DNA of 64,000 nt from Escherichia phage ALITA. The translations under genes and the position numbers were made by a program. The notes beneath the pieces are model-generated. The model had not been told where the DNA came from, ran no database searches, and saw only the letters and a program-made list of their open reading frames with translations. The stretch lies in sequence record PP359570, one strand, 5' to 3'. This document shows positions 3,540 through 64,000 of the stretch, piece after piece (within the stretch, counting starts at the first letter, position 1; every line of letters starts with the position of its first letter).

Positions 3540-3615
3540 GGTTCCATAGCTCACTGACGAGAGCGCACACCTCATAAGTGTCGAGGGCAGGGATTGTAAC
3601 CCTGGGGAACCACCA
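3540..3615 (+). tRNA. tRNA-Met/Ile2 (anticodon CAT)
   Basis: Cloverleaf: acceptor GGTTCCA/GGGAACC, D-stem GCTC/GAGC, anticodon loop CTCATAA, T-stem CAGGG/CCCTG with atypical T-loop ATTGTAA, 3' ACCA encoded. Confidence 0.75.
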
Positions 3616-3646
3616 TTTAAAAGGAGGTGCTATGCATCTCCTATAT

Positions 3647-3732
3647 GCAAGTGTGGTGGAATTGGTGATACACATTGTGCTTAAAACGCAACGCTTAAAT
3701 GCTTGAGGGTTCGAATCCCTCCACTTGCACCA
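3647..3732 (+). tRNA. tRNA-Leu (anticodon TAA), type II
   Basis: Acceptor GCAAGTG/CACTTGC, anticodon loop CTTAAAA, 13-nt variable arm, T-loop GGGTTCGAATCCC, CCA encoded. Confidence 0.8.
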
Positions 3733-3734
3733 AC

Positions 3735-3840
3735 GCCTAGTAGGGTATTTGGTAATTCCGAGGCCATCAAAGCCTGAAAAATATGTTAGACCGTTTTGTC
3801 TAACTAAATACGAAATATGGTTCGATTCCATAACTAGGCT
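3735..3840 (+). tRNA. atypical long tRNA-like gene (about 106 nt), candidate anticodon TCA (would read UGA); Sec/Ser-like architecture
   Basis: Perfect 7-bp acceptor GCCTAGT/ACTAGGC, 6-bp D-stem with 4-nt loop, anticodon arm AGGC-CATCAAA-GCCT, long variable hairpin GTTAGAC-CGTTTT-GTCTAAC, canonical T-arm TATGG-TTCGATT-CCATA; no encoded CCA. Confidence 0.4.
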
Positions 3841-3875
3841 CCCGATTTAAATAGTAATTTTTTAATAAAAATATC

Positions 3876-3904
3876 TTGACATTTACTTAGTTTTTTGTTA
3901 TAGT
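3876..3904 (+). promoter_or_regulatory. sigma70-like promoter (-35 TTGACA 3876-3881, -10 TATAGT 3899-3904)
   Basis: Consensus hexamers, 17-bp spacer, TG upstream of -10; precedes tRNA at 3916. Confidence 0.55.
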
Positions 3905-3915
3905 CATTATGAAAA

Positions 3916-3997
3916 CGGGGTGTATCTCACCTGACTTCTAATCAGGCGTTAACCGAGTAATTGGAGTATGCAGGTTCGAATCCTGTCACCCCGGCCA
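3916..3997 (+). tRNA. tRNA-Arg-like (anticodon TCT), atypical: no canonical D-arm, 23-nt extra region
   Basis: Perfect acceptor CGGGGTG/CACCCCG, anticodon arm CCTGA-CTTCTAA-TCAGG, T-arm GCAGG-TTCGAAT-CCTGT, GCCA 3' end; only 7 nt between acceptor and anticodon stem. Confidence 0.45.
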
Positions 3998-4015
3998 AAA
4001 AGTTTTAAAAACTAC

Positions 4016-4044
4016 TTGACAAGCAAGATAGTTTTATGTTAGAT
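4016..4044 (+). promoter_or_regulatory. sigma70-like promoter (-35 TTGACA 4016-4021, -10 TTAGAT 4039-4044)
   Basis: Consensus -35, 17-bp spacer; precedes tRNA-Ser. Confidence 0.5.
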
Positions 4045-4060
4045 TTAAAGTATGGTAACA

Positions 4061-4150
4061 GGAAGGTAGGGCGCAGCGGTGCGCAACCAGGTTTGAACCC
4101 TGGCCCATTGTAGCGATACGGTGATGGTTCGACTCCATTATCTTCCTCCA
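4061..4150 (+). tRNA. tRNA-Ser (anticodon TGA), type II
   Basis: Acceptor GGAAGGT/ATCTTCC, anticodon arm CCAGG-TTTGAAC-CCTGG, long variable arm, T-loop GGTTCGACTCC, CCA encoded. Confidence 0.75.
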
Positions 4151-4168
4151 AATTCGCTTAGGAGCTTT

Positions 4169-4321
4169 ATGAATTATAAAACTATTGGACAGGTTGTTAC
4201 CGGAGTTAAGATTGTAAATAATAAAGTTGTTTATGAGTATTCTAATCTTCAACAATCTGAAGATGGTAAGAATATTTGTATGGTAAAAGCAGAACAAAAA
4301 GATTCCGGTTGTTTTGAATAA
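4169..4321 (+). CDS. hypothetical small protein (50 aa)
   Basis: ATG 4169 after SD aggag 4160-4164, immediately downstream of tRNA-Ser; ORF-track ORF 4121..4321 starts inside the tRNA so the internal ATG is preferred. Confidence 0.4.
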   Translation: MNYKTIGQVVTGVKIVNNKVVYEYSNLQQSEDGKNICMVKAEQKDSGCFE

Positions 4322-4329
4322 TTAAAAAC

Positions 4330-4415
4330 GGTAGATTGGTGAAATGGTAGCCACAACAGTTTGCTAAACTGTCGTCGGAAACGGCGTGTAGGTTCAAGTC
4401 CTACATCTACCGCCA
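4330..4415 (+). tRNA. tRNA-Ser (anticodon GCT), type II
   Basis: Acceptor GGTAGAT/ATCTACC, anticodon arm ACAGT-TTGCTAA-ACTGT, variable arm, T-arm GTAGG-TTCAAGT-CCTAC, CCA encoded. Confidence 0.8.
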
Positions 4416-4541
4416 AGTTATCTTTAATGTAGCTTGTAATCTTACTTTAGCAGAGTAAATCTTCGGCAAGTGGCAGTAACCACTTTACCGATAGCCCATA
4501 GTCAAGTGCCGCAAACACTGGCTATTTTAAAGATAATTTAT

Positions 4542-4617
4542 ACATCGTTAGCTTAGTTGGTAGAGCAAGGGGCTTTTAACTCCAAGGTCGAAGGTTCGAA
4601 TCCTTCACGATGTACCA
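4542..4617 (+). tRNA. tRNA-Lys (anticodon TTT)
   Basis: Acceptor ACATCGT/ACGATGT, D-arm GCTT-AGTTGGTA-GAGC, anticodon loop CTTTTAA, T-arm GAAGG-TTCGAAT-CCTTC, CCA encoded. Confidence 0.8.
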
Positions 4618-4622
4618 AACAC

Positions 4623-4709
4623 GTAGGTATCGCATAGCGGCAATTGCTGGAGACTGTAAATCTCTTGCCCTTCGGGGCTTCGTTGGTTCGAGTCCAACTA
4701 CCTGCACCA
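4623..4709 (+). tRNA. tRNA-Tyr (anticodon GTA), type II
   Basis: Acceptor GTAGGTA/TACCTGC, anticodon arm GGAGA-CTGTAAA-TCTCT, variable arm TGCCCTTCGGGGCTTC, T-arm GTTGG-TTCGAGT-CCAAC, CCA encoded. Confidence 0.75.
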
Positions 4710-4716
4710 AATTAAA

Positions 4717-4801
4717 GATGGATTGGCCTAGTGGTTGGGCGACGGACTGTTAATCCGTGAACGAAAGTTCTAGCAAGGTTCAAATCCTTGATCCATCGCC
4801 A
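4717..4801 (+). tRNA. tRNA-Asn (anticodon GTT) with unusually long variable arm
   Basis: Acceptor GATGGAT/ATCCATC, anticodon arm ACGGA-CTGTTAA-TCCGT, variable hairpin GAAC-GAAA-GTTC, T-arm CAAGG-TTCAAAT-CCTTG, CCA encoded. Confidence 0.6.
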
Positions 4802-4805
4802 AATA

Positions 4806-4873
4806 GTGCTTGTAGAGTTAATAGAAACCTCTAGAATTTTCTAGAATTGTAGGTATCAAATCCTACCAAGCAA
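4806..4873 (+). pseudogene. tRNA-like remnant (acceptor and T-arm-like pairing, no anticodon arm, no CCA)
   Basis: GTGCTTG/CAAGCAA acceptor-like pairing and GTAGG-TATCAAAT-CCTAC hairpin; internal region contains palindrome TCTAGAATTTTCTAGA instead of an anticodon arm. Confidence 0.25.
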
Positions 4874-4880
4874 ATATTTT

Positions 4881-4955
4881 GCTCCTATCGTATAACGGCT
4901 ATTACGGTTGCCTTGTAAGCAACTTATCAGGGTTCGAGTCCTTGTGGGAGCACCA
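4881..4955 (+). tRNA. tRNA-Thr (anticodon TGT)
   Basis: Acceptor GCTCCTA/TGGGAGC, anticodon arm GTTGC-CTTGTAA-GCAAC, T-loop GGGTTCGAGTCC, CCA encoded. Confidence 0.75.
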
Positions 4956-4977
4956 ATTTAACTCTAAAGGAGTGTAT

Positions 4978-5301
4978 GTGACAGAAAAAGAGTTAGAGAA
5001 ATATTTTAATATCAATGTTTTCGATGGTTTTGATGATATTGAAGATGTTGAAAGATATTATGAAGTAGAGTTAGATAAGGATAACATTGTAATTCTTTCT
5101 GCCACTTATGATTGTGCATATTATGAAGGCGAATCTCACGTTTATTTCTATGATATGAAAACATCTTTGTTTTATGAAGTACACGCATATCATTGTTCTT
5201 GTTATGGCTTAGAAGGTCAGTGGGAACCTGAAGAAATAGGTGATTTGAGCTTTACGGTTGCATATCTAAACAGACGTGGTGCATCTACTATTTTAAAATA
5301 A
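4978..5301 (+). CDS. hypothetical protein (acidic, Cys/His-containing)
   Basis: ORF-track ORF 4879..5301 begins inside tRNA-Thr; in-frame GTG 4978 follows SD aaggag 4967-4972 and is the likely start. Confidence 0.5.
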   Translation: MTEKELEKYFNINVFDGFDDIEDVERYYEVELDKDNIVILSATYDCAYYEGESHVYFYDMKTSLFYEVHAYHCSCYGLEGQWEPEEIGDLSFTVAYLNRRGASTILK

Positions 5302-5315
5302 ATATTAAAAGCCTC

Positions 5316-5345
5316 TTGACAAAGGGGCTAATAATATGTTAGAGT
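5316..5345 (+). promoter_or_regulatory. sigma70-like promoter (-35 TTGACA 5316-5321, -10 TAGAGT 5340-5345)
   Basis: Consensus -35, 18-bp spacer; precedes tRNA-Gly. Confidence 0.5.
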
Positions 5346-5356
5346 AATATTGTTAA

Positions 5357-5431
5357 GCGGGTATAGTGTTAATGGTAGCATATGAGGTTTCCACCCTCCA
5401 GGTGCAGGTTCAAGTCCTGTTACTCGCTCCA
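5357..5431 (+). tRNA. tRNA-Gly (anticodon TCC)
   Basis: Acceptor GCGGGTA/TACTCGC, anticodon loop TTTCCAC, T-arm GCAGG-TTCAAGT-CCTGT, CCA encoded; resembles bacterial tRNA-Gly(UCC). Confidence 0.8.
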
Positions 5432-5530
5432 AGATTATTTAAATGGAATCGCTAGAGAAAATTTCTCTTTTCGCTCATGGTTTTCTCCTTCAAACTCTAG
5501 CGGTTCTTTTTAAGTGATTTTTAGTTTTAT

Positions 5531-5605
5531 TGGAGATTAGCCTAGTGGGAAGGCAACGGCCTTTGAAGTCGTGATGACTAGGTTCGATTCCTAGATCTCC
5601 AGCCA
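5531..5605 (+). tRNA. tRNA-Gln (anticodon TTG)
   Basis: 5' U1 with A72 (TGGAGAT/ATCTCCA) as in bacterial tRNA-Gln, anticodon arm ACGGC-CTTTGAA-GTCGT, T-arm CTAGG-TTCGATT-CCTAG, GCCA end. Confidence 0.8.
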
Positions 5606-5647
5606 ATTAATTGCATAGCATGAGTATTTCTCATTGGTTAAAAGGAG

Positions 5648-6013
5648 ATGCAAGTGAATTGTGAACATTGTGGTAGTGAGTTTACTTTGATAAAAGGTCA
5701 TGGTGGACAAAACAGATCATACTGTTACACTTGTATTCCAGAAGGTTTAGATAAACAAGTACGCACAAGATTACATCAAGAACTTAGAAGAGAGCGATCT
5801 CATAAGATGAAACTTGATTTAGGTTGCAAAGTGTGTGGTTATGCTAAATGTGCAGTAGCACTAGAATGGCATCACCCAGAGGACGATAAGAAACACGATC
5901 CATCTAATGCAATCAAAAGATCTTGGTCTGCTTACTTAGAAGAGACTGAAAAGTGTATCTTACTATGTGCCAATTGTCATAGAGAAGTACATGCTGGTCT
6001 TATACAGGTTTAA
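5648..6013 (+). CDS. HNH homing endonuclease (free-standing, inside tRNA array)
   Basis: 121-aa ORF; CxxC...CxxC zinc-binding pairs and HNH motif WHHPEDDKKHDP...LLCANCHREVH; alternative start GTG 5654 has better SD spacing. Confidence 0.85.
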   Translation: MQVNCEHCGSEFTLIKGHGGQNRSYCYTCIPEGLDKQVRTRLHQELRRERSHKMKLDLGCKVCGYAKCAVALEWHHPEDDKKHDPSNAIKRSWSAYLEETEKCILLCANCHREVHAGLIQV

Positions 6014-6014
6014 T

Positions 6015-6090
6015 CAGTGCGTAGCGCAGTTGGTAGCGTGGGAGCCTTGGACGCTTCAGGTCGCAGGTTCGAGTCCTGCCGCACTGACCA
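6015..6090 (+). tRNA. tRNA-Pro (anticodon TGG)
   Basis: Perfect acceptor CAGTGCG/CGCACTG, anticodon arm GGAGC-CTTGGAC-GCTTC, T-arm GCAGG-TTCGAGT-CCTGC, CCA encoded; starts 2 nt after HNH stop. Confidence 0.8.
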
Positions 6091-6095
6091 AATTT

Positions 6096-6170
6096 GCAGA
6101 GATAGCTGAGACGGATTAGTGCTACCCTGAAAAGGTAGAAAGGATGGATCGTTACCATCTCTCTGCACCA
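6096..6170 (+). tRNA. tRNA-Phe (anticodon GAA)
   Basis: Acceptor GCAGAGA/TCTCTGC, anticodon arm CTACC-CTGAAAA-GGTAG, T-arm GATGG-ATCGTTA-CCATC (non-canonical T-loop), CCA encoded. Confidence 0.7.
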
Positions 6171-6247
6171 GATAATACCATCCAAGGAGAATACTTGGTT
6201 AACTGTCAATAGCACATTGAGGCTTCTTACAGTGGTGTACTTATTAT

Positions 6248-6332
6248 GGCTAAGTGGTGGAATGGTATACACGATACGCTTAGAACGTATTGCCCCAAGG
6301 GATTGTGAGTTCGAGTCTCACCTTAGCTACCA
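6248..6332 (+). tRNA. tRNA-Leu (anticodon TAG), type II
   Basis: Acceptor GGCTAAG/CTTAGCT, anticodon arm ATACG-CTTAGAA-CGTAT, variable hairpin CCC-CAA-GGG, T-arm GTGAG-TTCGAGT-CTCAC, CCA encoded. Confidence 0.75.
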
Positions 6333-6347
6333 AATTATTACAGGTTT

Positions 6348-6426
6348 CGCGGGATAGAGGAGTCTGGTCGTCCTCGCCAGTTTCATATGCTGGAGATCGT
6401 AGGTTCAAATCCTACTCCCGTTACCA
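6348..6426 (+). tRNA. tRNA-Met/Ile2 (anticodon CAT), second copy
   Basis: Acceptor CGCGGGA/TCCCGTT (terminal mismatch), D-arm GAGG/CCTC, anticodon arm CCAGT-TTCATAT-GCTGG, T-arm GTAGG-TTCAAAT-CCTAC, CCA encoded. Confidence 0.6.
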
Positions 6427-6470
6427 ATAAATACCTCCCTTCTGGTGTAATGATTAAATTACATTGACAC

Positions 6471-54996: not shown

Positions 54997-55971
54997 TTAA
55001 AGACTTTCAATAACTTGACGACGCAGTTCATTGGCATCTGCAAGATTATAATTAAGACGAACGTGTTCTGCAAGCATCATACCACGATCTTCTGTGTATC
55101 TAGGGTTCCTCATTAGCTTGACAACTTCATAATGCCAAGATGCTTTAGAGTCTGCATAGATAACAGCCTTTGCATCTACCGGATTGAAGTACGGCAGCAC
55201 AGGAGAACAGATAATAGGAAGACCCTTTGCACCTGCTTCCAAAATCTTCAAATTGCTTTTACAGTTGTTGAAGTCATTATCTACCAGGGGAGCAATTGCA
55301 ATACTGTGACCGTCATACACAGACATATACTCACCTAAATTTTTAATAGCTGGTTTATACTGTGCATTTGGAATCTTACGTTTTATTTTAACCCACTCCG
55401 CAGTAGTTAGATACTGACTATTATTTCCAACAGGTGCAGAAGGATACACTTCATACCCTGCAATTGTCAATAGTGTATCATCAAATGTATTAGCTACAAG
55501 AGATAAATCAGGTTCGTGGCTTGCTCCTCCAGCCCAGATAATAGGCGTGTCAGAATTACGGTCTTTTGTCAAAGTAAATTGACCTTCGTCGTAAGGTAGT
55601 GCGTTTCTAATAACGACAACATTACGATTTAAATGACGAATTTTGTAAGCTAGGTATTCTGTTGTTACAGTAACAACATCTGCTAACTTGACCATCTCTA
55701 CAATAGTCTTTGAGTGATTAGTAAATACGCCAGCCATATAATGTTCAGGATTAAGTGAATAAAAATCATCTAAATCAACAATAATCTTAACACCTTGTGC
55801 CTTCAGGCGTTTAACCTCGTCTGCTCCACGAGAATACACTCTATTAAAAACTAAAACGTCTTTCTTAGGTTTAAACGTATTTCCAGCAAATGGCATTACA
55901 ATACGATGGTAATCACAACCACTGCCTAACTTATTATCACACTTAAGTACAGGAGTATTAGGATTTACCAT
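54997..55971 (-). CDS. putative GT-B-fold glycosyltransferase (paralogue B)
   Basis: ATG 55971 after SD gaggagg; shares CD(F/Y)HRI, LP(F/Y)DEGQF.LTKDR, YDGH.I.IAPLV, KSNLKILEAGAKGLP blocks with paralogue A. Confidence 0.5.
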   Translation of the reverse strand: MVNPNTPVLKCDNKLGSGCDYHRIVMPFAGNTFKPKKDVLVFNRVYSRGADEVKRLKAQGVKIIVDLDDFYSLNPEHYMAGVFTNHSKTIVEMVKLADVVTVTTEYLAYKIRHLNRNVVVIRNALPYDEGQFTLTKDRNSDTPIIWAGGASHEPDLSLVANTFDDTLLTIAGYEVYPSAPVGNNSQYLTTAEWVKIKRKIPNAQYKPAIKNLGEYMSVYDGHSIAIAPLVDNDFNNCKSNLKILEAGAKGLPIICSPVLPYFNPVDAKAVIYADSKASWHYEVVKLMRNPRYTEDRGMMLAEHVRLNYNLADANELRRQVIESL

Positions 55972-56644
55972 ATTTTTGAGCCTCCTCATAAGAGATAAAA
56001 GTTTTACCATTGCGAAGATCCTCCAGTGATTGTTTATATTGTTCCCAGTTTACACCAATCCCCTGTTCTTTCTCTTCTTTTGACAGATTCGCAAAAGGTA
56101 AAGGATTATCTCCAAATACATCATCAGGATGGATAAACGCCATAATTCGAATAGGACATGGCACGCCTTGAATACCTCGGTTCAAACCTGCCAGTGGAAC
56201 GCGATGAATCCACTCTGCATCTTCATATCCATAACCGTGGGTGTATGAGCGGAAATAGCCAGCTTTCTCAATAACTGCACGGGAATACATACCAAACTGG
56301 CACATACCTAGTTCCCAAATAACCACTTCCCCTTCAATACCTTTTACTTTATCTTTAAAGTATTCAGGCATACCAAAGAAATCCCAACCATTTTCCTTCG
56401 CCTGTTTTACAAAATATGTTTCCCAACCTTGAACAACAGGATAGCAATCATCATCAAAAATAAACCAGTAATCATACCCTTCATCATAAAACTTTTTCAT
56501 CAGTTCATTACGAGCATATGCAACACCTTTTCGTTCCCGATCATACTGTACAACAAAAGTAGCATTAGGATCAGTCACAAGATAATCTTTAAGAGGACGC
56601 TTACCTACAGTAATAACACCAACACCAATTTTTGTATTTTCCAA
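55958..56644 (-). CDS. putative GT-A-fold glycosyltransferase
   Basis: 228-aa ORF; DxD-type motif FIFDDDCYP and downstream GYGYEDAEW resembling GT-A acceptor-side motifs. Confidence 0.5.
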   Translation of the reverse strand: MENTKIGVGVITVGKRPLKDYLVTDPNATFVVQYDRERKGVAYARNELMKKFYDEGYDYWFIFDDDCYPVVQGWETYFVKQAKENGWDFFGMPEYFKDKVKGIEGEVVIWELGMCQFGMYSRAVIEKAGYFRSYTHGYGYEDAEWIHRVPLAGLNRGIQGVPCPIRIMAFIHPDDVFGDNPLPFANLSKEEKEQGIGVNWEQYKQSLEDLRNGKTFISYEEAQKYGKS

Positions 56645-57677: not shown

Positions 57678-57955
57678 CAGTGTAACACTCCCAGTATGTT
57701 GCTTTGTGACATAACCATAGAACATTCAACATTATCGTGACTACGTGAAAAACGTTCCCAAACATCTTCATCGACTCGTAAAGCTATACAAGGATAGACG
57801 TTATCATTGATCATTTCAATTGAATAAACATCCATATTGTCTTCGTCTTCGATGAACATCATTGCAAACTGTTCTAAATGTTTCCTAATGTAATGTACAT
57901 CCTCTTCTGTAAGACCAATAACAAGATAACTTGCAACGATAACGCCATCTTTCAT
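57677..57955 (-). CDS. hypothetical protein
   Basis: 92-aa acidic ORF. Confidence 0.4.
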   Translation of the reverse strand: MKDGVIVASYLVIGLTEEDVHYIRKHLEQFAMMFIEDEDNMDVYSIEMINDNVYPCIALRVDEDVWERFSRSHDNVECSMVMSQSNILGVLH

Positions 57956-57965
57956 CTATATCTCC

Positions 57966-58475
57966 TTAGCGATAAAATTGATGTTCTTTGTAGCGGTACA
58001 CTAGAACCATATCTTTTTCCCAGTGTGCTCTTATTGTAGATTTTTTAAAGTATAATGCTCCTTTTGTAATATCTAATGCAATTCGTAATTCTGGAAAATG
58101 CGTATCGAGATAAAGTAGACGTTCTGCTATAGCCTTAGCTTCCTTCCACTTATCACGTTCCATAACGTTGAATGTCTTTGTGTAAGAGAATTGTCCTTTT
58201 TGAAACAAAACTTCTTTTATAGTATCAGGGAAATATGAATCTCTAGCCCTATTCAATACTACATTACCAACAGCAGACATACCGCGCTTTCCTTGATTAC
58301 GACTTTCTGCATAGATTGCACAAGCTAATAGATTTTCTTTACTATCACGCTTTGTACACTTGTGAACTACTTTAGCAGTTTTTACGTTTGCAGCTTCGGC
58401 TTGCGCCACAACAGGTGTAAATGTAAAAGCAGTTAAGGATAGTAACGCAATTGCGACAAAGGTTTTTATTGACAA
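57966..58475 (-). CDS. secreted cell-wall hydrolase (SleB/CwlJ-type Hydrolase_2 family), candidate endolysin
   Basis: 169-aa ORF; N-terminal signal peptide ending AQAEA; motif CAIYAESRNQGKRGMSAVGNVVLNRA...FPDT...FQKGQFS. Confidence 0.6.
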   Translation of the reverse strand: MSIKTFVAIALLSLTAFTFTPVVAQAEAANVKTAKVVHKCTKRDSKENLLACAIYAESRNQGKRGMSAVGNVVLNRARDSYFPDTIKEVLFQKGQFSYTKTFNVMERDKWKEAKAIAERLLYLDTHFPELRIALDITKGALYFKKSTIRAHWEKDMVLVYRYKEHQFYR

Positions 58476-58567
58476 ACTTGCCTCCTATTTTGTTAAACGA
58501 ACTTTTATTGTAACACAGAAGAGGCTGTTTTGCAAGTGGAGGGGGATAATCCCCCTCTTACATTCTG

Positions 58568-59170
58568 TTAGATGTTGTAAACCTTTGTATGAGTTACTAC
58601 ACCATCTTCTACAAAATCAATACGTTCTTGATCCGTAACTAGTGCAGACAATACTTTAAATTTAATTGTTACACGTTCAAAAGCTGGTTGACCATCTTTA
58701 AGATAATTATGTTCGGTTGTCACTGTCTTGTTTACAAAATCAACTTTCGCTTTACCGTTTTCGCGCAAGTGGAATGTTTTTCCTGCTTTATACACAATTT
58801 CAACATTACCTTCGAGAGTAATTCCTTCAAAAAGTTCACCCTCTTCTTCATTTTCTTCGCTTTTGAACAGACGACGAAACTCTTCCATATCAAGATAAAC
58901 AACATCTTCAGAATAACTATCAGTAAGGTATGTCTTACCATCCATTAACCCGAAATATTGCCAGATCGCAGAATAAACATCACTAGTTGATCCAAGGGTT
59001 TCTCTGAGTTTAGTTCCACGGATTACTTCATAAACTTCAAAATTGAAACCAGACTGCAAAGCATTAAACAGTACATCACTAACTTCTAAAGCATAATCTT
59101 CATTGTTGTCAATATCCACAAGAAAATTACCGCTGCGAATAAGTTTTTGACCTTCTAAAGTAATACCCAT
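58568..59170 (-). CDS. hypothetical protein
   Basis: 200-aa acidic ORF between hydrolase and TerD-like genes. Confidence 0.45.
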   Translation of the reverse strand: MGITLEGQKLIRSGNFLVDIDNNEDYALEVSDVLFNALQSGFNFEVYEVIRGTKLRETLGSTSDVYSAIWQYFGLMDGKTYLTDSYSEDVVYLDMEEFRRLFKSEENEEEGELFEGITLEGNVEIVYKAGKTFHLRENGKAKVDFVNKTVTTEHNYLKDGQPAFERVTIKFKVLSALVTDQERIDFVEDGVVTHTKVYNI

Positions 59171-59197
59171 TGTTTTCTCCTCTTCTATTTAAAATAT

Positions 59198-59213
59198 GCG
59201 CCCCGAAGGGCGC
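59198..59213 (-). terminator. hairpin / terminator after TerD-like gene
   Basis: GCGCCC-CGAA-GGGCGC with A/T-rich flanks. Confidence 0.45.
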
Positions 59214-59222
59214 TATGATTTA

Positions 59223-59819
59223 TTACTCGAACCAATCGTCGCCAGCGCCAAACGCTTTAACTACATCATAAATGTCAAGTCCAGCTTTACCTACACCATA
59301 TGCTTTCAGTTTCCATTCGCTATCTTCCCGCACCAGGGAGGCAACGTGGCAAATGGTATTACCTGCAAGTTCTGGAGCCAAGAAGTCAAAATCCAGCAGT
59401 TCAACGTTACGTTCATCATCGAAGATTTTAAGGAAACCTTCGGTAGCGTGACCAAGGCGTTTCTTACCCGTTTCGTCATCAATAGTGATTACGAATGCAA
59501 TTTCCTGTGCTTCAGCAGAGATATTATCCAGTGTAACATCAATCTGCTCCATTTGTCCTACACCGTCACGAACATCTTCACCTGCAAAAGTAGAACGTTC
59601 AGGATCAAATTTCTGTGCGTAGCATACCAGGTGGCGAGGAGACAACAGTTCCGGCAGACCAGATGCATTGTGTCGGCAAATCAGAGCACTAACATCCAGA
59701 TCCAGTTTTTCGTTAGATTTCCAAGAGAATTCCAGACGAATGCGTTTCAGTGCTGGTGCAATCTTTTTCAGAGAAACTTTTTCGCTAGAACCTTTTTTCA
59801 GGGAAATTTTCTGAGTCAT
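59223..59819 (-). CDS. TerD-domain protein
   Basis: 198-aa ORF with SD; ISLKKGSSEKVSLKK, LDLDVSALICR, GEDVRDGVGQMEQIDVTL, IAFVITIDD, EWKLKAYGVGKAG match TerD-family architecture. Confidence 0.75.
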   Translation of the reverse strand: MTQKISLKKGSSEKVSLKKIAPALKRIRLEFSWKSNEKLDLDVSALICRHNASGLPELLSPRHLVCYAQKFDPERSTFAGEDVRDGVGQMEQIDVTLDNISAEAQEIAFVITIDDETGKKRLGHATEGFLKIFDDERNVELLDFDFLAPELAGNTICHVASLVREDSEWKLKAYGVGKAGLDIYDVVKAFGAGDDWFE

Positions 59820-59891
59820 AATTTATTATCTCCTTTGTTGTTAATTTACGTTGTCTATTTTACTAATCTTTTCTACAAAGTCAAGCGTTTT

Positions 59892-60686
59892 TTACGCTTT
59901 TGCTCCAAATTTTTTAACCCACTCGCCAAACTCTTCGGATAGCAGTTTATCGTAAAGTTCTTCGTCAGACAAGGACAAATCTGCAATACCGATAAAATCA
60001 ACGTTATCGTATTCTTTTGCCAAGTCTTTCAGGAATTTAAAGTTTGCATTACCTACACCAACCATAAACCAGTAAACAGGAGTGTTGCGGTGTTTGTTCA
60101 GCAAACTACGTACTGCTGAAGTATCCATGTTCTCCCCGTCAGTTTGGAAGAAAATCATTGCAGGAGTACGATCAACTTGTGCATCAGTATCTACAACCTG
60201 TTCTACAACAGTACGTGTAACTTCTACACGTTCTTTTTTACCAGTTAGTTTAGCAAGGAAACCCTTAGCCGGAACTTCTTCATACTCAACGACTTCGCGT
60301 GTAATATTTTTCATAGGTACACTACCGAAGTATGTATCATAGATCTCTTGCATTACTGGAGCATAAGCTGTACCACCATTGATGCAAACATTAGACATAC
60401 AAGAGCCGACATAATCATCATATACATCAGCCGTTGCAGGAGGCAGTTCAAAAGAAGAACTATTGAAAGCCCACATGTCAATCTGTGCATTATCATCAAA
60501 CTTCATACCAAACGGCAGCAGCTTACCTACAAAATCACTAACAGTGCCATCACGATACAGCTCACACATACTACCCGAAATATCTAAGGCGCTACCGACA
60601 CGAAGAACAACATCGTTAATCTTTTTCTTACGCAGAGATACGGTAAGAGTTTCTTGACGTTTTTTAAGACTGATTTTATTGGACAT
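59892..60686 (-). CDS. von Willebrand factor A (vWA) domain protein, TerY-like
   Basis: 264-aa ORF with SD; MIDAS motif DISGS plus downstream Thr and Asp (GGTAY, QTDGE). Confidence 0.65.
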   Translation of the reverse strand: MSNKISLKKRQETLTVSLRKKKINDVVLRVGSALDISGSMCELYRDGTVSDFVGKLLPFGMKFDDNAQIDMWAFNSSSFELPPATADVYDDYVGSCMSNVCINGGTAYAPVMQEIYDTYFGSVPMKNITREVVEYEEVPAKGFLAKLTGKKERVEVTRTVVEQVVDTDAQVDRTPAMIFFQTDGENMDTSAVRSLLNKHRNTPVYWFMVGVGNANFKFLKDLAKEYDNVDFIGIADLSLSDEELYDKLLSEEFGEWVKKFGAKA

Positions 60687-60687
60687 A

Positions 60688-60957
60688 TTATTTCTCCTTT
60701 CTGAGTGTAATGTTAGTAACTTCTAAATCCACTTCTACCACTTCTGTATCATATAAAATACAGTTAAGTTGACCTCTTTGTGAACCGTTCAGACACATTG
60801 CTTGGTTTGTATTAACCTTAATAAACACTAAGTTTCTGAACGTATCTAAACCAGCATCTTGATAGGCAACATAATATACGAATGTATCACCTGTGTCAAG
60901 TTCTCCAAAACATTTAGGTTCATCTGATTTGTCGTCTTTGATATTAAATTTAAGCAC
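60688..60957 (-). CDS. hypothetical protein
   Basis: 89-aa ORF. Confidence 0.4.
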   Translation of the reverse strand: MLKFNIKDDKSDEPKCFGELDTGDTFVYYVAYQDAGLDTFRNLVFIKVNTNQAMCLNGSQRGQLNCILYDTEVVEVDLEVTNITLRKEK

Positions 60958-61513
60958 TGTCTTCTCCTTTACCTGCTCTCAAGCCTAAATAGAAAGCCTC
61001 TCTGGTGATCTTTTGCAACTCGTTTAAAGAGATAGTTACAACTAAATCATCTTCAATTTCTAGCTTTGAGTCTTCTTCTGTCTCAATGCAAGTATTATGC
61101 ACTTTGTGGTAAGGATTGTCAACACGTTTAAATTTATTATTTTCAGTGCTGAAGAAGCAATCTGGATCTTCTTCCCCATCACCCCAACCCTGGTTAGGAT
61201 CTTCTTCAGATCTTTCTGTTGGGATCTCGCCTGTAAAGTGCTCTTCTAATACCAGAGCAATCCCATCTCCAAGATCGGAAGAGAACATCAAATTACAAAC
61301 TTCTTCCCAAGGCATAGACCACTTAAATCTTTTACGATTGCCATGTTTATCTTCTTCGTTAGAGAAAACACTACCATAGCTATCATAATTCCCATACATC
61401 TCTTCGACAACCTTACCACCTTTCAAAAGAAATAGGTAGCAAGGAGAGCCATCGAAAGAGGTAGAAAGAGCAGCATTACCAGACTCTTTGCACAAGAAAC
61501 TAAAACACCCCAT
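60950..61513 (-). CDS. hypothetical protein (acidic)
   Basis: 187-aa ORF. Confidence 0.4.
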   Translation of the reverse strand: MGCFSFLCKESGNAALSTSFDGSPCYLFLLKGGKVVEEMYGNYDSYGSVFSNEEDKHGNRKRFKWSMPWEEVCNLMFSSDLGDGIALVLEEHFTGEIPTERSEEDPNQGWGDGEEDPDCFFSTENNKFKRVDNPYHKVHNTCIETEEDSKLEIEDDLVVTISLNELQKITREAFYLGLRAGKGEDSA

Positions 61514-61713
61514 TATACACCAGCCTTAAGATCAATTAAAGCCAAAGTTGTTTCAGAGTGTGTTTGCTCGTCTACAGGTGCAGTCATATGATAATACAAA
61601 AAATCTTCGGCATCATACCAATCTGATTCTTGACCTTGTTTCCAACCATCAATGAAAGCATCTTCCATAATGGTTTGCAATTCTTCACGAGTTAAGTGAA
61701 TATCTTTACTCAT
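61513..61713 (-). CDS. hypothetical small protein
   Basis: 66-aa ORF. Confidence 0.35.
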   Translation of the reverse strand: MSKDIHLTREELQTIMEDAFIDGWKQGQESDWYDAEDFLYYHMTAPVDEQTHSETTLALIDLKAGV

Positions 61714-61946
61714 TACACATTCTCCTCTTTTACCAATTCCATTGTTGAATTGTCAAAACCATCTTTAGAAGAATAGGTATAGACAGCACGTAGTTCTCGC
61801 AGGACAGTGAATACATTAGGATCATCTAACCAAGCATCCTGGAGGAGAACATAACGATCTTCATTGTCATACTGGACAGCAATCATAGAGCCAGACAGTT
61901 TGTAAATTTTAATATTCATAATATATTTCTCCTTAAAGTAGACCAC
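61713..61946 (-). CDS. hypothetical small protein
   Basis: 77-aa ORF. Confidence 0.35.
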   Translation of the reverse strand: MVYFKEKYIMNIKIYKLSGSMIAVQYDNEDRYVLLQDAWLDDPNVFTVLRELRAVYTYSSKDGFDNSTMELVKEENV

Positions 61947-63036
61947 GTTTAACAGTTTGAATCATACCATCTTCAAGAGATTGCACTTCTTGAATGTAAT
62001 CAATACGAGCAGCACGGGCTTCAGTGTTGATTCGGTTAGTTTCTTCCAACATTTTAACTAAGTTTTCTTGATCACGACGCAATGTTTCAATATCCAATAC
62101 TTGACGATTAGCAAGTTGTGTAGCTTCAATCTGGTTTTGTGCAGCCAGATCACTACCCATTGCAATAGCAGCATTAAATTCATTCAGTACGTTGTTCTGT
62201 GTATCGGCTGCTTTCTTCTGGCGCAGACTTTCAATATACATAGAAAAGTTTGCAGAGTAAGCAGGAATAACATTGTTCACAATATTACGGGCTGATCGCA
62301 TCAAACTTGCAGATACTTTCTGCATACTTTGTACACGTGGCCCCATCTGAACGCACAGTAAGCGTAAGGCTTTCAGGTCTGCAATACGAATTTCAAGCAG
62401 ATCCATAGTGTCACGAGTACGTTGACGCTCTTCTACTTCATTTTCAGGTAGTGTATTAAGGCGAACTTCTTCTTTTTCATAAGTAGCTGTTAGAAGCTCT
62501 ATATCCCTGTTTAAGCTAAGAGCATATTTTGCAATAGCCTCCTCTAAACGTTGCAGATATCGTAAAGAATCTTCTTCTTTTTTCAAGTCTGTTTGGAGTG
62601 TCTTTACCAAACCCTCAATACGATTATTGATGGTGTCAAATTCTCCAAACAAATCTTCTTTCATACCTAATACTTTCTTAACTAACTTACCTAAACCTTT
62701 AGATTGTTTAATAGAATTAGGATCAAGTTGCTTTGCTTGCTTAATAAGTGCAGTTAAACGTTCACTCATTTCATCTCCCTGAGATGAACGCTGGTGTTTA
62801 AGCACTTCAGCATTAAGGTTACGAAGAGTAAGTCCTGCATCAGCACCAACTTGTTCAATCTCTTCACGAGACATTGGAGGCAGCATTTGTACAGGTCGTG
62901 CAACAGCAGGGGCATATACAGGACTTGCATCCATAGCACTTGGAGCAAACAAAGACTTACTTTTTTCTGTTGTTGCCGTGAATACACTCATTTCAGACGG
63001 TTTGCTTTTTACGGCACTGATAAAAGGACTGGACAT
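61933..63036 (-). CDS. helical coiled-coil protein, possible TelA/KlaA-like (toxic anion resistance family)
   Basis: 367-aa ORF with SD ggagg; long predicted helices; family assignment based on size, composition and co-location with TerD and vWA genes. Confidence 0.3.
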   Translation of the reverse strand: MSSPFISAVKSKPSEMSVFTATTEKSKSLFAPSAMDASPVYAPAVARPVQMLPPMSREEIEQVGADAGLTLRNLNAEVLKHQRSSQGDEMSERLTALIKQAKQLDPNSIKQSKGLGKLVKKVLGMKEDLFGEFDTINNRIEGLVKTLQTDLKKEEDSLRYLQRLEEAIAKYALSLNRDIELLTATYEKEEVRLNTLPENEVEERQRTRDTMDLLEIRIADLKALRLLCVQMGPRVQSMQKVSASLMRSARNIVNNVIPAYSANFSMYIESLRQKKAADTQNNVLNEFNAAIAMGSDLAAQNQIEATQLANRQVLDIETLRRDQENLVKMLEETNRINTEARAARIDYIQEVQSLEDGMIQTVKRGLL

Positions 63037-63104
63037 TCAATTTCCTCCATATTCTTTAGTAGATGGTGATACCTCTGTACCACCATCATAACACAAATTA
63101 AGTA

Positions 63105-63956
63105 TTAAACAAACATATCTAAATAATTTGTAGTAATAAATGCTCCATCTGCTTCCAGATTAACATAACCAGTAGCATTAGTGGTTAAGAAATCCAGATC
63201 GAAGGACTCTTTAACACCCCGTACCTCAACACGAGAGATATCGAATACAGGTAGTGTAACAGCCTCTTCGTGCAATACCGTACCTTTGTAGGTTGCCTTA
63301 ATGATAAACTTGATATTACCCGTTCCAGCATCATACAAAACACTTTCAAACCCTTTGAGAGTATATTTATCACCAGAAGTGAAGTGCAAAGTTGCTTTGT
63401 TTACAGTACGTTTTTTACGAGGAGTTCCTTTCACACGTTTATGATCACTACGTTTTTTGTATTTAGGAATGAATACAAACGATACACTCTCAAGAAAGGT
63501 ATCAACATCAAGGATTTTAATATCCTCTGTTGCAGCAAATTTTGAAGTCGTTGCATCAAAATGCTTTTCCCTGCGATCATACATAAAGATATCAAACCGA
63601 TCTTCTAAATCAAACAAATTATGTATTTTAATTTCAGAATGCTTGCGCATTGCAGCAACCTTGAACTCTTCAAAACGTGGGTGTTCTACAAGTTCTTCAA
63701 GTTTTACACCAAAGACAGTATATTGCTTCGAAGTCTTTTCTGGTGTTGGCATTACAGAAGCATAATCACCGATTGCGCTCTTAAAGCAAAATTGTTCTTG
63801 ACCTGTATTTTTACCAACGAATTTACAGTATTCGTCATTGTGCATACTTTCCTTAGTAGTACCAACAAACTCAAAACCATCTTTATTCTTCTCAAGGATT
63901 TCTTGATTAAAGATCCAACCTTCCAGGCGATATACTTTACCAACTTCTAGTTTCAT
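63105..63956 (-). CDS. hypothetical protein
   Basis: 283-aa ORF with SD aaggag. Confidence 0.45.
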   Translation of the reverse strand: MKLEVGKVYRLEGWIFNQEILEKNKDGFEFVGTTKESMHNDEYCKFVGKNTGQEQFCFKSAIGDYASVMPTPEKTSKQYTVFGVKLEELVEHPRFEEFKVAAMRKHSEIKIHNLFDLEDRFDIFMYDRREKHFDATTSKFAATEDIKILDVDTFLESVSFVFIPKYKKRSDHKRVKGTPRKKRTVNKATLHFTSGDKYTLKGFESVLYDAGTGNIKFIIKATYKGTVLHEEAVTLPVFDISRVEVRGVKESFDLDFLTTNATGYVNLEADGAFITTNYLDMFV

Positions 63957-64000
63957 CTGTTTCTCCTTCTTATTTAATCTGTATTAAATTATTAACGACG

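What the first reader, a model, noticed from the sequence alone, without database searches (positions are those of the whole stretch)
59223..63036. Phage-borne Ter-like module: TerD-domain protein, TerY-like vWA protein and a possible TelA-like protein
Three minus-strand genes within 4 kb resemble components of bacterial tellurite-resistance (ter) stress loci. The TerD-family signature at 59223..59819 is strong (N-terminal SLKKG..VSLKK, LDLD.SA, GD..G.G..E.I.V.L, acidic C-terminal W-K-hKAhG-G). The vWA protein at 59892..60686 has an intact MIDAS. The 367-aa helical protein at 61933..63036 has TelA-like size and character, but that assignment is weak. These sit in the early/middle region upstream of glycosyltransferase and replication genes, among several unassignable small ORFs. 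Ter systems are host stress and phage-defence-associated loci with poorly understood biochemistry; a virulent phage carrying its own copy suggests a takeover, signalling or counter-defence role.
Basis: partly seen in the sequence, partly recalled or inferred. Interest (0 to 1): 0.8.

Follow-up and report, generated by a model that had tools for sequence, protein, structure and literature searches.

The report
Phage-encoded Ter stress module (known)
The three genes are genuine TerD, TerF-type vWA and TelA homologues, but they are the already annotated Ter-like gene cluster of phi92-like E. coli phages, whose role during infection is still untested.

Summary
Observation confirmed. All three minus-strand ORFs match their Pfam families far above the curated cut-offs: TerD E=5e-28, vWA-TerF-like E=7e-39, TelA E=5e-34 over the full length. 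The vWA is TerF-type, not TerY-type.

The window is a Justusliebigvirus (phi92-like myophage), 99.6% identical to phage AV123. The genes are phi92 gp172, gp173 and gp178, which GenBank already annotates as stress, TerD, VWA or toxic-anion-resistance proteins. Published papers already discuss phage TerC–TerD–TerF-vWA–TelA clusters.

The finding covers only part of the module. Just past the window end, near-identical phages add a TerC/Alx membrane protein, a PRTase_3, a HAD phosphatase and a macro domain.

What I add:
- The four-family core (TelA, vWA, TerC or DUF475, TerD) recurs in the same order in unrelated Pseudomonas and Caulobacter phages.
- The genes are under purifying selection (dN/dS 0.06–0.14).
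- The MIDAS motif is invariant.
- TerD keeps Ca2+ site 1, but site 2 is degenerate in this subfamily.
- TelA to vWA is one tightly packed unit; TerD has its own promoter-like site and terminator-like hairpin.

The function is inferred, not shown. Most likely this is a membrane-associated, metal-dependent complex that conditions the infected cell's envelope, for example to exclude rival phages. Verdict: already known, modest interest.

The parts
61933..63036 (-). TelA-family protein (367 aa), equal to phi92 gp178. It is the first gene of the tightly packed TelA-to-vWA unit.
   Evidence: Pfam PF05816 E=5.1e-34 over the full length. PHROG 5890 'tellurite resistance' E=9.5e-137. No TM segment. The first ~55 residues lie outside the Pfam match and are low-confidence in the model. 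All homologues down to 39% identity look phage-derived (Stephanstirmvirinae-size contigs or named phages); bacterial TelA is only 21-27% identical.
61713..61919 (-). Small acidic ORF (68 aa, phi92 gp177-like), function unknown.
   Evidence: PHROG 26823. Annotated at this position in phages Paula and JLBYU50. Starts 13 nt after the TelA stop codon.
61513..61713 (-). Small acidic ORF (66 aa, gp176-like), function unknown. It keeps its position just downstream of TelA across the subfamily.
   Evidence: PHROG 14200. 47-50% identical copies lie between TelA and vWA in Klebsiella phage 05F01 (directly after TelA) and in Phapecoctavirus ESCO37. Its ends overlap both neighbouring genes by 1 nt.
60950..61513 (-). 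gp175-like protein (187 aa). It belongs to a widespread, strongly conserved phage family of unknown function and is co-transcribed here, but it is not Ter-specific.
60688..60957 (-). Small ORF (89 aa, gp174-like), function unknown, conserved immediately upstream of the vWA gene.
   Evidence: PHROG 11278. 65% identical in Phapecoctavirus and 43% in 05F01 at the same position. Overlaps gp175 by 8 nt and ends 1 nt before the vWA start.
59892..60686 (-). Stand-alone TerF-C-terminal-type vWA protein (264 aa), equal to phi92 gp173, with an intact MIDAS.
   Evidence: Pfam PF10138 E=7.2e-39. D35, S37, S39, T106 and D183 are invariant in five phage lineages. It carries an insertion of about 45 aa (residues ~126-172) found only in Stephanstirmvirinae. 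Its N-terminal 20 aa share 11 identities with the TerD N-terminus.
59857..59884 (-). Sigma-70-like promoter candidate (TTGACT-16-TAAAAT) in the 72-nt gap upstream of TerD.
   Evidence: Consensus scan, 10 of 12 matches. Sequence read, followed by an AAAGGAG ribosome-binding site. This is a pattern match only, not proof of function.
59223..59819 (-). TerD-domain protein (198 aa), equal to phi92 gp172.
   Evidence: Pfam PF02342 E=5.1e-28. Matches the solved TerD structures 2KXT (E=8.6e-15) and 3IBZ. 100% identical in protein sequence in many Justusliebigvirus genomes. Ca1 site 5 of 6 kept; Ca2 site degenerate.
59198..59213 (-). Terminator-like GC hairpin (GCGCCC-TTCG-GGGCGC followed by a T-rich tail), 10 nt after the TerD stop. 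It closes the unit.
   Evidence: Terminator scan and sequence read.
57966..58475 (-). Neighbour, not a Ter gene: exported SleB-like cell-wall hydrolase. It is conserved just downstream of TerD across the subfamily and has its own promoter-like site.
   Evidence: Pfam Hydrolase_2 E=6.5e-20. N-terminal hydrophobic segment, KD19 2.08. Immediately follows TerD in 05F01 and Phapecoctavirus.
58568..59170 (-). Neighbour, not part of the module: gp171-like ORFan (200 aa) inserted between TerD and the hydrolase.
   Evidence: All listed homologues (best 120 of 126) are >=94% identical, i.e. Justusliebigvirus only. No tblastn match in ESCO37 or 05F01. It lies downstream of the terminator-like hairpin.

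Best explanation
Identity (near certain, about 0.97). This is the promoter-distal part of the Ter-like gene cluster that is core to Stephanstirmvirinae phages. Within the window it reads TelA, four small ORFs, TerF-type vWA, then TerD. Just beyond the window end, near-identical phages add a TerC/Alx-type inner-membrane protein, a PRTase_3, a HAD phosphatase and a macro-domain protein.

Mechanism (inferred, about 0.4). The genes sit in the replication-side gene block and are expressed from it. TerC (or DUF475 in a divergent relative) is the only membrane-embedded part. The soluble proteins are TerD (Ca2+-binding beta-sandwich), the vWA (MIDAS metal-dependent adaptor) and TelA (long helical protein). 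They assemble under the inner membrane into a metal-dependent complex that changes ion and metal flux and the state of the envelope in the infected cell. PRTase_3 plus HAD may supply a nucleoside-like ligand.

The most likely benefit is protection of the infected cell from secondary attack, meaning superinfecting phages and pore-forming colicins. This mirrors the phage-inhibition and colicin-resistance phenotypes of plasmid ter loci. The stated confidence refers to the mechanism, not the identity.
For: Shown here:
- Family membership of all three proteins and of TerC, PRTase_3, HAD and macro in phage Paula. Phage AV123, 99.6% identical to the window, has the same layout, with a gene its record annotates as TerC about 1.9 kb past the window end.
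- The same four families occur in the same order (TelA, vWA, TerC or DUF475, TerD) in unrelated Otagovirus and Colossusvirus phages.
- In Klebsiella phage 05F01 a DUF475 protein replaces TerC/Alx at the same relative position. The membrane partner is therefore exchangeable but always present.
- Purifying selection: dN/dS is 0.125 for TerD, 0.14 for vWA, 0.084 for TelA and 0.058 for TerC. The module is present in every Justusliebigvirus and Phapecoctavirus match.
- The MIDAS motif is invariant and Ca1 is largely kept.
- None of the three in-window proteins has a TM segment.
- The genes from TelA to vWA abut or overlap.

From the literature:
- Ter loci confer phage inhibition and colicin resistance (cited in PMC8386662).
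- Aravind's group proposes that phage Ter systems act against superinfecting phages, with TelA and TerF-vWA forming sub-membrane structures (PMC7824862).
Against: No experiment exists for any phage Ter gene in the literature I could search. No PADLOC defence model matches. The TerD Ca2 site is degenerate in this subfamily, so it may not behave like KP-TerD. TerB, part of the minimal bacterial ter determinant, is absent from every ORF scanned. The host-side Ter mechanism is itself unresolved (PMC12054061 abstract). The link between PRTase_3/HAD/macro and the Ter genes rests on proximity alone, and 05F01 lacks them. The TelA model was too poor to add mechanism.
Confidence: 0.4

Rival explanations
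1. Counter-defence. The module keeps the inner membrane energised and intact against host abortive-infection effectors that depolarise or perforate the membrane, so the phage can finish its cycle.
For: Plasmid Ter loci resist pore-forming colicins (literature cited), which is a membrane-protective phenotype. The module is core to a virulent, broad-host-range subfamily. A DarG-like macro domain, a plausible anti-DarT factor, lies in the same gene block. This suggests the region collects anti-host functions.
Against: There is no direct evidence. No known anti-defence family matched. It is hard to separate from the best explanation without experiments.
Confidence: 0.2
2. Metal and ion housekeeping (an auxiliary metabolic function). 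A TerC/Alx-type exporter, with TerD, vWA and TelA as regulators, adjusts Mn2+, Ca2+ or Zn2+ in the infected cell, or metalates exported or phage enzymes.
For: The phage TerC scores above the curated cut-off of TIGR03718 'TerC/Alx family metal homeostasis membrane protein' (323 bits against 246). TerC has been linked to Mn export and Zn resistance (PMC8779313; PMC12054061). TerD binds Ca2+ and the vWA has a MIDAS. An exported cell-wall hydrolase follows TerD across the subfamily. Jug phages pair highly transcribed terD genes with a Ca2+ P-type ATPase (PMC12880540).
Against: No yybP-ykoY or other riboswitch lies near the phage terC. SleB-type hydrolases are not known to need Mn (my own knowledge). 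This reading does not explain why TelA and vWA always travel with TerD and TerC.
Confidence: 0.2
3. Lysis-timing or envelope-stability control. The complex stabilises the envelope until the programmed lysis time.
For: TerD is adjacent to an exported peptidoglycan hydrolase in all three subfamily lineages examined. TelA homologues are linked to envelope stress in Firmicutes (my own knowledge).
Against: In Otagovirus and Colossusvirus phages the quartet is not next to a lysis gene. TerD and the hydrolase appear to be separate transcription units.
Confidence: 0.1
4. Literal tellurite or xenobiotic resistance given to the host, or decaying passenger genes with no function.
For: The family names. 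PMC7824862 mentions possible xenobiotic resistance during pseudolysogeny.
Against: The phage is virulent. TerB and the TerZ, TerA and TerE paralogues are absent. PMC9796965 judges tellurium resistance unlikely for the incomplete phage set. Decay is excluded by dN/dS of 0.06-0.14 and by 100% protein identity of TerD across dozens of isolates.
Confidence: 0.05

Closest known systems
Escherichia phage phi92 gp172 / gp173 / gp178 (plus gp182 TerC, gp185-187), and the same genes in other Justusliebigvirus and Phapecoctavirus genomes
   Same: These are the same genes. The region is 97.8-99.6% identical in DNA. TerD and TelA are up to 100% identical in protein. Gene order is the same. They are already annotated as putative stress protein, TerD family protein, VWA domain-containing protein, and stress/toxic anion resistance protein.
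   Different: Nothing of substance. Many records still call them hypothetical.
Phage Ter clusters of Pseudomonas PhiPsa374-like phages (Otagovirus), Caulobacter Colossusvirus jumbo phages, Klebsiella phage phiKp34 and Acinetobacter phage ME3 (PMC9796965, PMC7824862, PMC8386662)
   Same: The same four families appear in the same order: TelA, vWA-TerF-like, TerC or DUF475, TerD. According to PMC7824862, ME3 also has PRTase and HAD genes.
   Different: Only 22-33% identical. The genes are contiguous there, with at most one small ORF between them (one 84-aa ORF in phiPsa381). Here four small ORFs separate TelA from vWA, and the membrane gene sits upstream of TelA. Their TerD keeps the canonical GDNxxG..DDE Ca2+ motif, while this subfamily's is degenerate at Ca2. 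Their vWA lacks the ~45-aa insertion.
terZABCDEF of IncHI2 plasmid R478 / E. coli O157 (tellurite resistance, phage inhibition, colicin resistance)
   Same: It shares the TerD-domain protein, the TerC membrane protein and a TerF-type vWA. The weak DNA match of the phage terC in E. coli genomes falls on ter-operon terC.
   Different: The bacterial locus has TerB and several TerD paralogues (Z, A, D, E, F). Its vWA is fused to a TerD domain in TerF, and it has no TelA (my own knowledge plus the Pfam family definition). The phage set lacks TerB, has a single TerD and a stand-alone vWA, and adds TelA. Phage terC matches host terC only at 68-70% over about 200 nt, so it is not a recent capture.
Bacillus subtilis yceCDEFGH stress operon and RK2 kilA (klaA-telA-telB)
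   Same: yce combines TerD paralogues, a TerC homologue and a TelA homologue (YceH). RK2 TelA is the founding TelA (my own knowledge; not tested here).
   Different: Neither has a vWA component. Bacterial TelA is only 21-27% identical to the phage protein.

Membership tests
TerD domain family (PF02342) | Sequence match to the family profile above the curated threshold | tested here: met
   98.2 bits against a cut-off of 25.3, E=5.1e-28, profile positions 3-178 of 187. phmmer to the solved TerD 2KXT gives E=8.6e-15.
TerD domain family (PF02342) | Ca2+ site 1 (KP-TerD residues 40, 41, 42, 78, 79, 89, as listed in PMC8779313 citing Pan et al. 2011) | tested here: met
   D40, L41, D42, D82 and E91 are conserved; only N79 becomes V83. 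Whether Ca2+ is actually bound was not tested.
TerD domain family (PF02342) | Ca2+ site 2 (KP-TerD residues 29, 82, 84, 88) and the acidic GDNxTGEGDGDDE loop | tested here: not met
   The loop is shortened (the position of G82 is deleted), D88 becomes M90, and the acidic residues D85 and D87 become V87 and Q89. The same holds in Phapecoctavirus and 05F01 (D88 becomes M or K). The PhiPsa381 and CcrPW TerD proteins keep the canonical loop. This makes it a divergent member, not a non-member.
vWA-TerF-like (PF10138) | Profile match above threshold and a complete MIDAS (DxSxS...T...D) | tested here: met
   134.5 bits against 29.4. D35, S37, S39, T106 and D183 are invariant in five phage lineages.
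TerF proper (terZABCDEF) | N-terminal TerD domain fused to the vWA domain | tested here: not met
   The protein is a stand-alone vWA. Only its first ~20 residues resemble the TerD N-terminus (11 of 20 identical). TerD is a separate gene 72 nt downstream.
   PF00092 scores 21.4 bits, below its cut-off of 23.8, and PF10138 is far stronger. No kinase or PP2C domain appears in any neighbouring ORF.
TelA / toxic anion resistance (PF05816) | Full-length profile match above threshold; an all-helical protein | tested here: met
   118.3 bits against 30, profile positions 13-330 of 332. The AF2 model is all-helical with long hairpin helices at 124-195 and 201-285, though mean pLDDT is only 58.7.
Bacterial terZABCDEF-type tellurite-resistance determinant | Presence of TerB and multiple TerD paralogues together with TerC | tested here: not met
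   No TerB hit and no second TerD hit in any ORF from the hydrolase to the NrdG-side genes. TerC is present in near-identical phages.
Recurrent phage Ter core (TelA + vWA-TerF-like + TerC-superfamily membrane protein + TerD) | All four families clustered on one strand in the order TelA, vWA, TerD | tested here: met
   Seen in the window plus AV123 and Paula, and in PhiPsa381, CcrPW, 05F01 and ESCO37. The TerC member lies outside the window, so its presence in this exact phage is inferred from 99.6% identity to AV123.
Known anti-phage defence systems (PADLOC-DB v2) | Match to any defence-system protein model | tested here: not met
   No hits for TerD, vWA, TelA, TerC, PRTase or HAD at E<=0.01.

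The most novel reading that the evidence does not exclude
The four-family phage Ter core would be a self-contained, phage-deployed envelope-guard system. In this subfamily it has a TerD reduced to one Ca2+ site, an expanded vWA, and a linked PRTase_3/HAD/macro set that might make or process a nucleoside-like signal. It would be a bacterial stress and defence module repurposed by virulent phages, either to shut out rival phages and colicins or to blunt membrane-targeting abortive infection. Because most E. coli lack ter loci (terC-like DNA was found in only 999 of 5426 complete genomes) and K-12 lacks one (my own knowledge), these phages would give a clean genetic system in which to finally define what Ter proteins do.
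Probability: 0.3. Interest if true: 0.65.

Novelty: already known. Interest (0 to 1): 0.3.

Why it matters
The biochemical function of Ter proteins has been unclear for three decades, in bacteria as well as in phages. The phi92-like phages, which include several BASEL-collection members isolated on K-12, carry a compact and strongly conserved Ter set that works in hosts lacking any ter operon. Deleting it or expressing it alone is a tractable way to test whether Ter acts on membrane integrity, metal flux or phage exclusion. As a genome-scan finding, however, it re-discovers an annotated and published feature. It does not change what specialists already expect.

Tried and rejected
2. PADLOC scan of six window proteins and four neighbouring proteins from phage Paula: only noise-level hits.
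3. NCBIfam: nothing for TerD, vWA or TelA.
4. Is gp171 (58568-59170) a second, divergent TerD, as in phiKp34? No Pfam hit. Its homologues are all >=94% identical and genus-restricted, and it has no counterpart in Phapecoctavirus or 05F01. I rejected it as a module member. No alignment depth was available for modelling.
5. Is gp175 a Ter accessory protein? Rejected: its family occurs in phage contigs without Ter genes.
6. Mn riboswitch or other RNA element near the phage terC: none at E<=1. In the window, only tRNAs reach Rfam gathering scores.
7. Recent capture of terC from E. coli: rejected, since only 68-70% identity over about 200 nt.
8. Domain fusions in long gp175-family members: none informative.
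9. Not available: the Anantharaman et al. 2012 Ter paper is not held, and the afdb50 fold library is not installed.
10. The promoter scan as a whole is not enriched over shuffles (39 found against 31.5 +/- 5.5), so individual sites are only suggestions.

Full report
**What is in the sequence.** The minus strand between 57.9 and 64 kb carries a run of closely packed ORFs. Pfam hmmscan assigns them as follows:
- 59223-59819 to TerD: PF02342, E=5.1e-28, 98 bits against a cut-off of 25.
- 59892-60686 to vWA-TerF-like: PF10138, E=7.2e-39, 134 bits against 29.
- 61933-63036 to TelA: PF05816, E=5.1e-34, 118 bits against 30, covering profile positions 13-330 of 332.

The vWA protein is of the TerF C-terminal type, not TerY-like: generic VWA PF00092 stays below its cut-off, and no kinase or PP2C gene is nearby. 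PHROGs places the three in families 5698, 5359 and 5890, and the last is labelled 'tellurite resistance'.

**Where the window comes from.** Megablast of 57900-64000 finds 126 phage records. The best are Escherichia phages AV123 and inny at 99.5-99.6%, with phi92 at 97.8%. All belong to the genus Justusliebigvirus, subfamily Stephanstirmvirinae. The three genes are phi92 gp172, gp173 and gp178. Several records already annotate them as 'putative stress protein', 'putative TerD family protein', 'VWA domain-containing protein' and 'putative stress/toxic anion resistance protein'.

Published papers cover the same ground:
- PMC4690881 lists Phi92_gp172, gp173 and gp178 as TerD or tellurite-resistance hits.
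- PMC8386662 describes a terC / terF-vWA / terD / telA cluster in Klebsiella phage phiKp34.
- PMC9796965 describes one in Pseudomonas phage PhiPsa374 and states that its function is unknown.
- PMC7824862 (Aravind group) reviews Ter systems in jumbo 'and certain other related smaller tailed phages' and proposes a role against superinfecting phages.
- PMC12880540 reports highly transcribed terD genes in gut jumbo phages.

The finding is therefore real but already known.

**The module is larger than the finding.** The window ends at 64000. In phage Paula (98.8% identical) the block continues in this order:
- two small proteins;
- a TerC protein (PF03741, E=1e-38; above the curated cut-off of TIGR03718 'TerC/Alx family metal homeostasis membrane protein', 323 bits against 246);
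- two small proteins;
- a macro-domain protein (PF01661; its best NCBIfam match is the macro domain of the DarG antitoxin, E=5.5e-13, below cut-off);
- a PRTase_3 (PF15610, E=1e-41);
- a HAD hydrolase.

AV123, 99.6% identical to the window, has the same gene layout, and its record annotates the corresponding gene as TerC. From memory, PRTase plus HAD is the 'nucleoside-like metabolite' branch that Anantharaman, Iyer and Aravind attached to Ter systems. I could not re-read that paper, but PMC7824862 restates the idea. That these genes are present in this exact phage is an inference from near-identity.

**Comparative anatomy.** Phapecoctavirus phage ESCO37 has the same order: HAD, PRTase, macro, TerC, then TelA, vWA, TerD, then a cell-wall hydrolase. 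A divergent subfamily member, Klebsiella phage 05F01, keeps TelA (40% identical), vWA (62%) and TerD (48%). It lacks the PRTase, HAD and macro genes. At the position of TerC it has a DUF475 protein, a different branch of the TerC superfamily.

I confirmed directly that two unrelated phages carry the same four families contiguously and in the same order:
- Otagovirus PhiPsa381: TelA, a small ORF, vWA-TerF-like, TerC, TerD.
- Colossusvirus CcrPW: TelA, vWA-TerF-like, DUF475, TerD.

The membrane partner can be swapped but is always there. That is the best computational argument that the four act together.

Across 50,697 phage records, tblastn finds TerD in 147, the vWA in 215 and TelA in 245. Homologues of the phage TelA down to 39% identity all look phage-derived (Stephanstirmvirinae-size contigs or named phages), and bacterial TelA is only 21-27% identical. 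The phage terC matches E. coli ter-operon terC only weakly, at 68-70% over about 200 nt. Such terC-like DNA occurs in 999 of 5426 complete E. coli genomes. The module is therefore old in this phage lineage and not a recent host capture.

**Constraint and residues.** Between the window and ESCO37, dN/dS is 0.125 for TerD, 0.14 for vWA and 0.084 for TelA. Between Paula and ESCO37, dN/dS is 0.058 for TerC (dS is near saturation, so these values are approximate). TerD is 100% identical in protein sequence across many isolates whose DNA differs by 1-2%.

The vWA MIDAS residues D35, S37, S39, T106 and D183 are invariant in five phage lineages. Stephanstirmvirinae add an insertion of about 45 residues.

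For TerD I mapped the two Ca2+ sites of Klebsiella TerD, using the residues listed in PMC8779313 citing Pan et al. 2011, onto an alignment with 2KXT and 3IBZ.
- Site 1 is kept in 5 of 6 positions: D40, L41, D42, D82 and E91, with N79 changed to V83.
- Site 2 is degenerate. The acidic loop GDNRTGEGDGDDE reads GEDVR-DGVGQME, with a deletion at the G82 position and D88 changed to M.
- The same holds in Phapecoctavirus and 05F01, but not in the PhiPsa381 or CcrPW TerD proteins.

I infer that this subfamily's TerD binds one Ca2+ rather than two. This was not measured.

None of the three proteins has a predicted TM segment, so TerC is the only membrane anchor.

**Operon structure.** From TelA to vWA the genes abut or overlap. 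The gaps and overlaps are 13 nt, 1 nt overlap, 1 nt overlap, 8 nt overlap and 1 nt, which suggests one translationally coupled unit. The 72-nt gap before TerD holds a sigma-70-like site (TTGACT-16-TAAAAT) and a good ribosome-binding site. Ten nucleotides after the TerD stop lies a GC hairpin with a T-rich tail. These are pattern matches only, and the promoter scan as a whole is not enriched over shuffles.

**The intervening ORFs.**
- gp174 and gp176 keep their positions in Phapecoctavirus and 05F01 at 43-65% identity. They may be lineage-specific accessories. gp177 has no match outside the genus.
- gp175 is not Ter-specific. It belongs to a large phage family (294 homologues; 315 clusters at 50% identity). 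The family has invariant N-terminal MGCFSF.C, GNYDSYG and DPNQGWG motifs. Members occur in phage contigs without Ter genes.
- gp171, between TerD and the hydrolase, is a genus-restricted ORFan downstream of the terminator-like hairpin.

**How it most likely works.** The following are shown here: the family identities, the conserved four-family association with an exchangeable TerC-superfamily membrane protein, purifying selection, an intact MIDAS, one preserved Ca2+ site, and soluble TerD, vWA and TelA.

The following is inferred. The soluble proteins assemble at TerC under the inner membrane into a metal-dependent complex that alters ion flux or envelope state in the infected cell. By analogy with the phage-inhibition and colicin-resistance phenotypes of plasmid ter loci, and following the proposal in PMC7824862, the benefit would be exclusion of rival phages or toxins. 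I put about 0.4 on this.

The rivals are protection against host membrane-targeting abortive infection (0.2), metal homeostasis or metalation through the Alx-like exporter (0.2), lysis-timing control (0.1), and literal tellurite resistance or decay (0.05; decay is excluded by the selection data). No tool here can separate these. The experiments that would are listed under next steps.

**Verdict.** Novelty is 'already known'. Interest is modest (0.3). The open question of what Ter proteins do is real, and these K-12-infecting phages are a good system to address it, but the finding itself would not surprise a specialist.

Noticed in passing
[not shown]
   Followed up: partly
L001 (phage Paula) 20451-22666 (-), just beyond the window end: A macro-domain protein sits next to PRTase_3 and a HAD hydrolase. 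Its best NCBIfam match is the DarG antitoxin macro domain (DNA ADP-ribosyl glycohydrolase), E=5.5e-13. It could be an anti-DarT counter-defence factor rather than part of the Ter system. A 36% identical macro protein lies near telA and a NAMPT gene in PhiPsa381.
   Followed up: partly
L001 18917-19894 against L006 4800-5774: TerC is 95% identical in protein (dS 0.52) between Justusliebigvirus and Phapecoctavirus. TerD, vWA, TelA, PRTase and HAD are 50-81% identical, with dS of 1 or more. This suggests either very strong constraint or a more recent exchange of terC between the genera.
   Followed up: partly
window 57966-58475 (-): A SleB-like cell-wall hydrolase (Hydrolase_2, E=6.5e-20) with an N-terminal signal-like hydrophobic segment and a TTG start. 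It is conserved just downstream of TerD in three subfamily lineages (directly adjacent in Phapecoctavirus and 05F01; separated by gp171 here) and has its own promoter-like site (TTGCAA-17-TACAAT with an upstream TG).
   Followed up: partly
window 60950-61513 and 61513-61713 (-): The C-terminal helix of gp175 (residues 159-185) resembles the N-terminus of the next protein, gp176 (residues 5-31): 9 of 27 identical, with an ELQxIxxxAFxxGxxxG pattern, pairwise E=0.001. It may be a small duplicated interaction motif.
   Followed up: no
window 59892-60686 and 59223-59819 (-): The first 20 residues of the vWA protein mimic the TerD N-terminus (MSNKISLKK..VSLRK against MTQKISLKK..VSLKK, 11 of 20 identical). 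L7, L18 and K20 are invariant in all five phage vWA proteins. This may be a remnant of the TerD-vWA fusion seen in TerF, or a docking strand.
   Followed up: no
window 55958-56644 (-) and 54997-56010 (-): Downstream ORFs give only sub-threshold glycosyltransferase hits: TET-associated glycosyltransferase PF20691 (E=3.9e-5, 24.1 bits against 27.5) and Glyco_trans_1_4 (E=0.004). The TAGT-like hit hints at DNA-base glycosylation rather than surface-sugar chemistry.
   Followed up: no
window 3540-6648 (+): A cluster of 15 tRNA genes found by ARAGORN. Rfam finds 14 tRNAs, including one at 3916-3994 that ARAGORN missed.
   Followed up: no
GenBank MG065639, MG065656, MG065645, MG065689: Records named 'Campylobacter phage A150/C3/A145/A110a' with host C. 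jejuni are 98% identical to this E. coli phi92-like region over the full 6.1 kb. The host label or the sample is probably wrong.
   Followed up: no
window 61094-61122 and 60871-60899 (-): Two near-perfect sigma-70-like sites (11 of 12 matches: TTGACA-17-CATAAT and TTGACA-17-TATTAT) lie inside the gp175 and gp174 coding regions upstream of the vWA gene. They may be internal promoters or chance matches.
   Followed up: no
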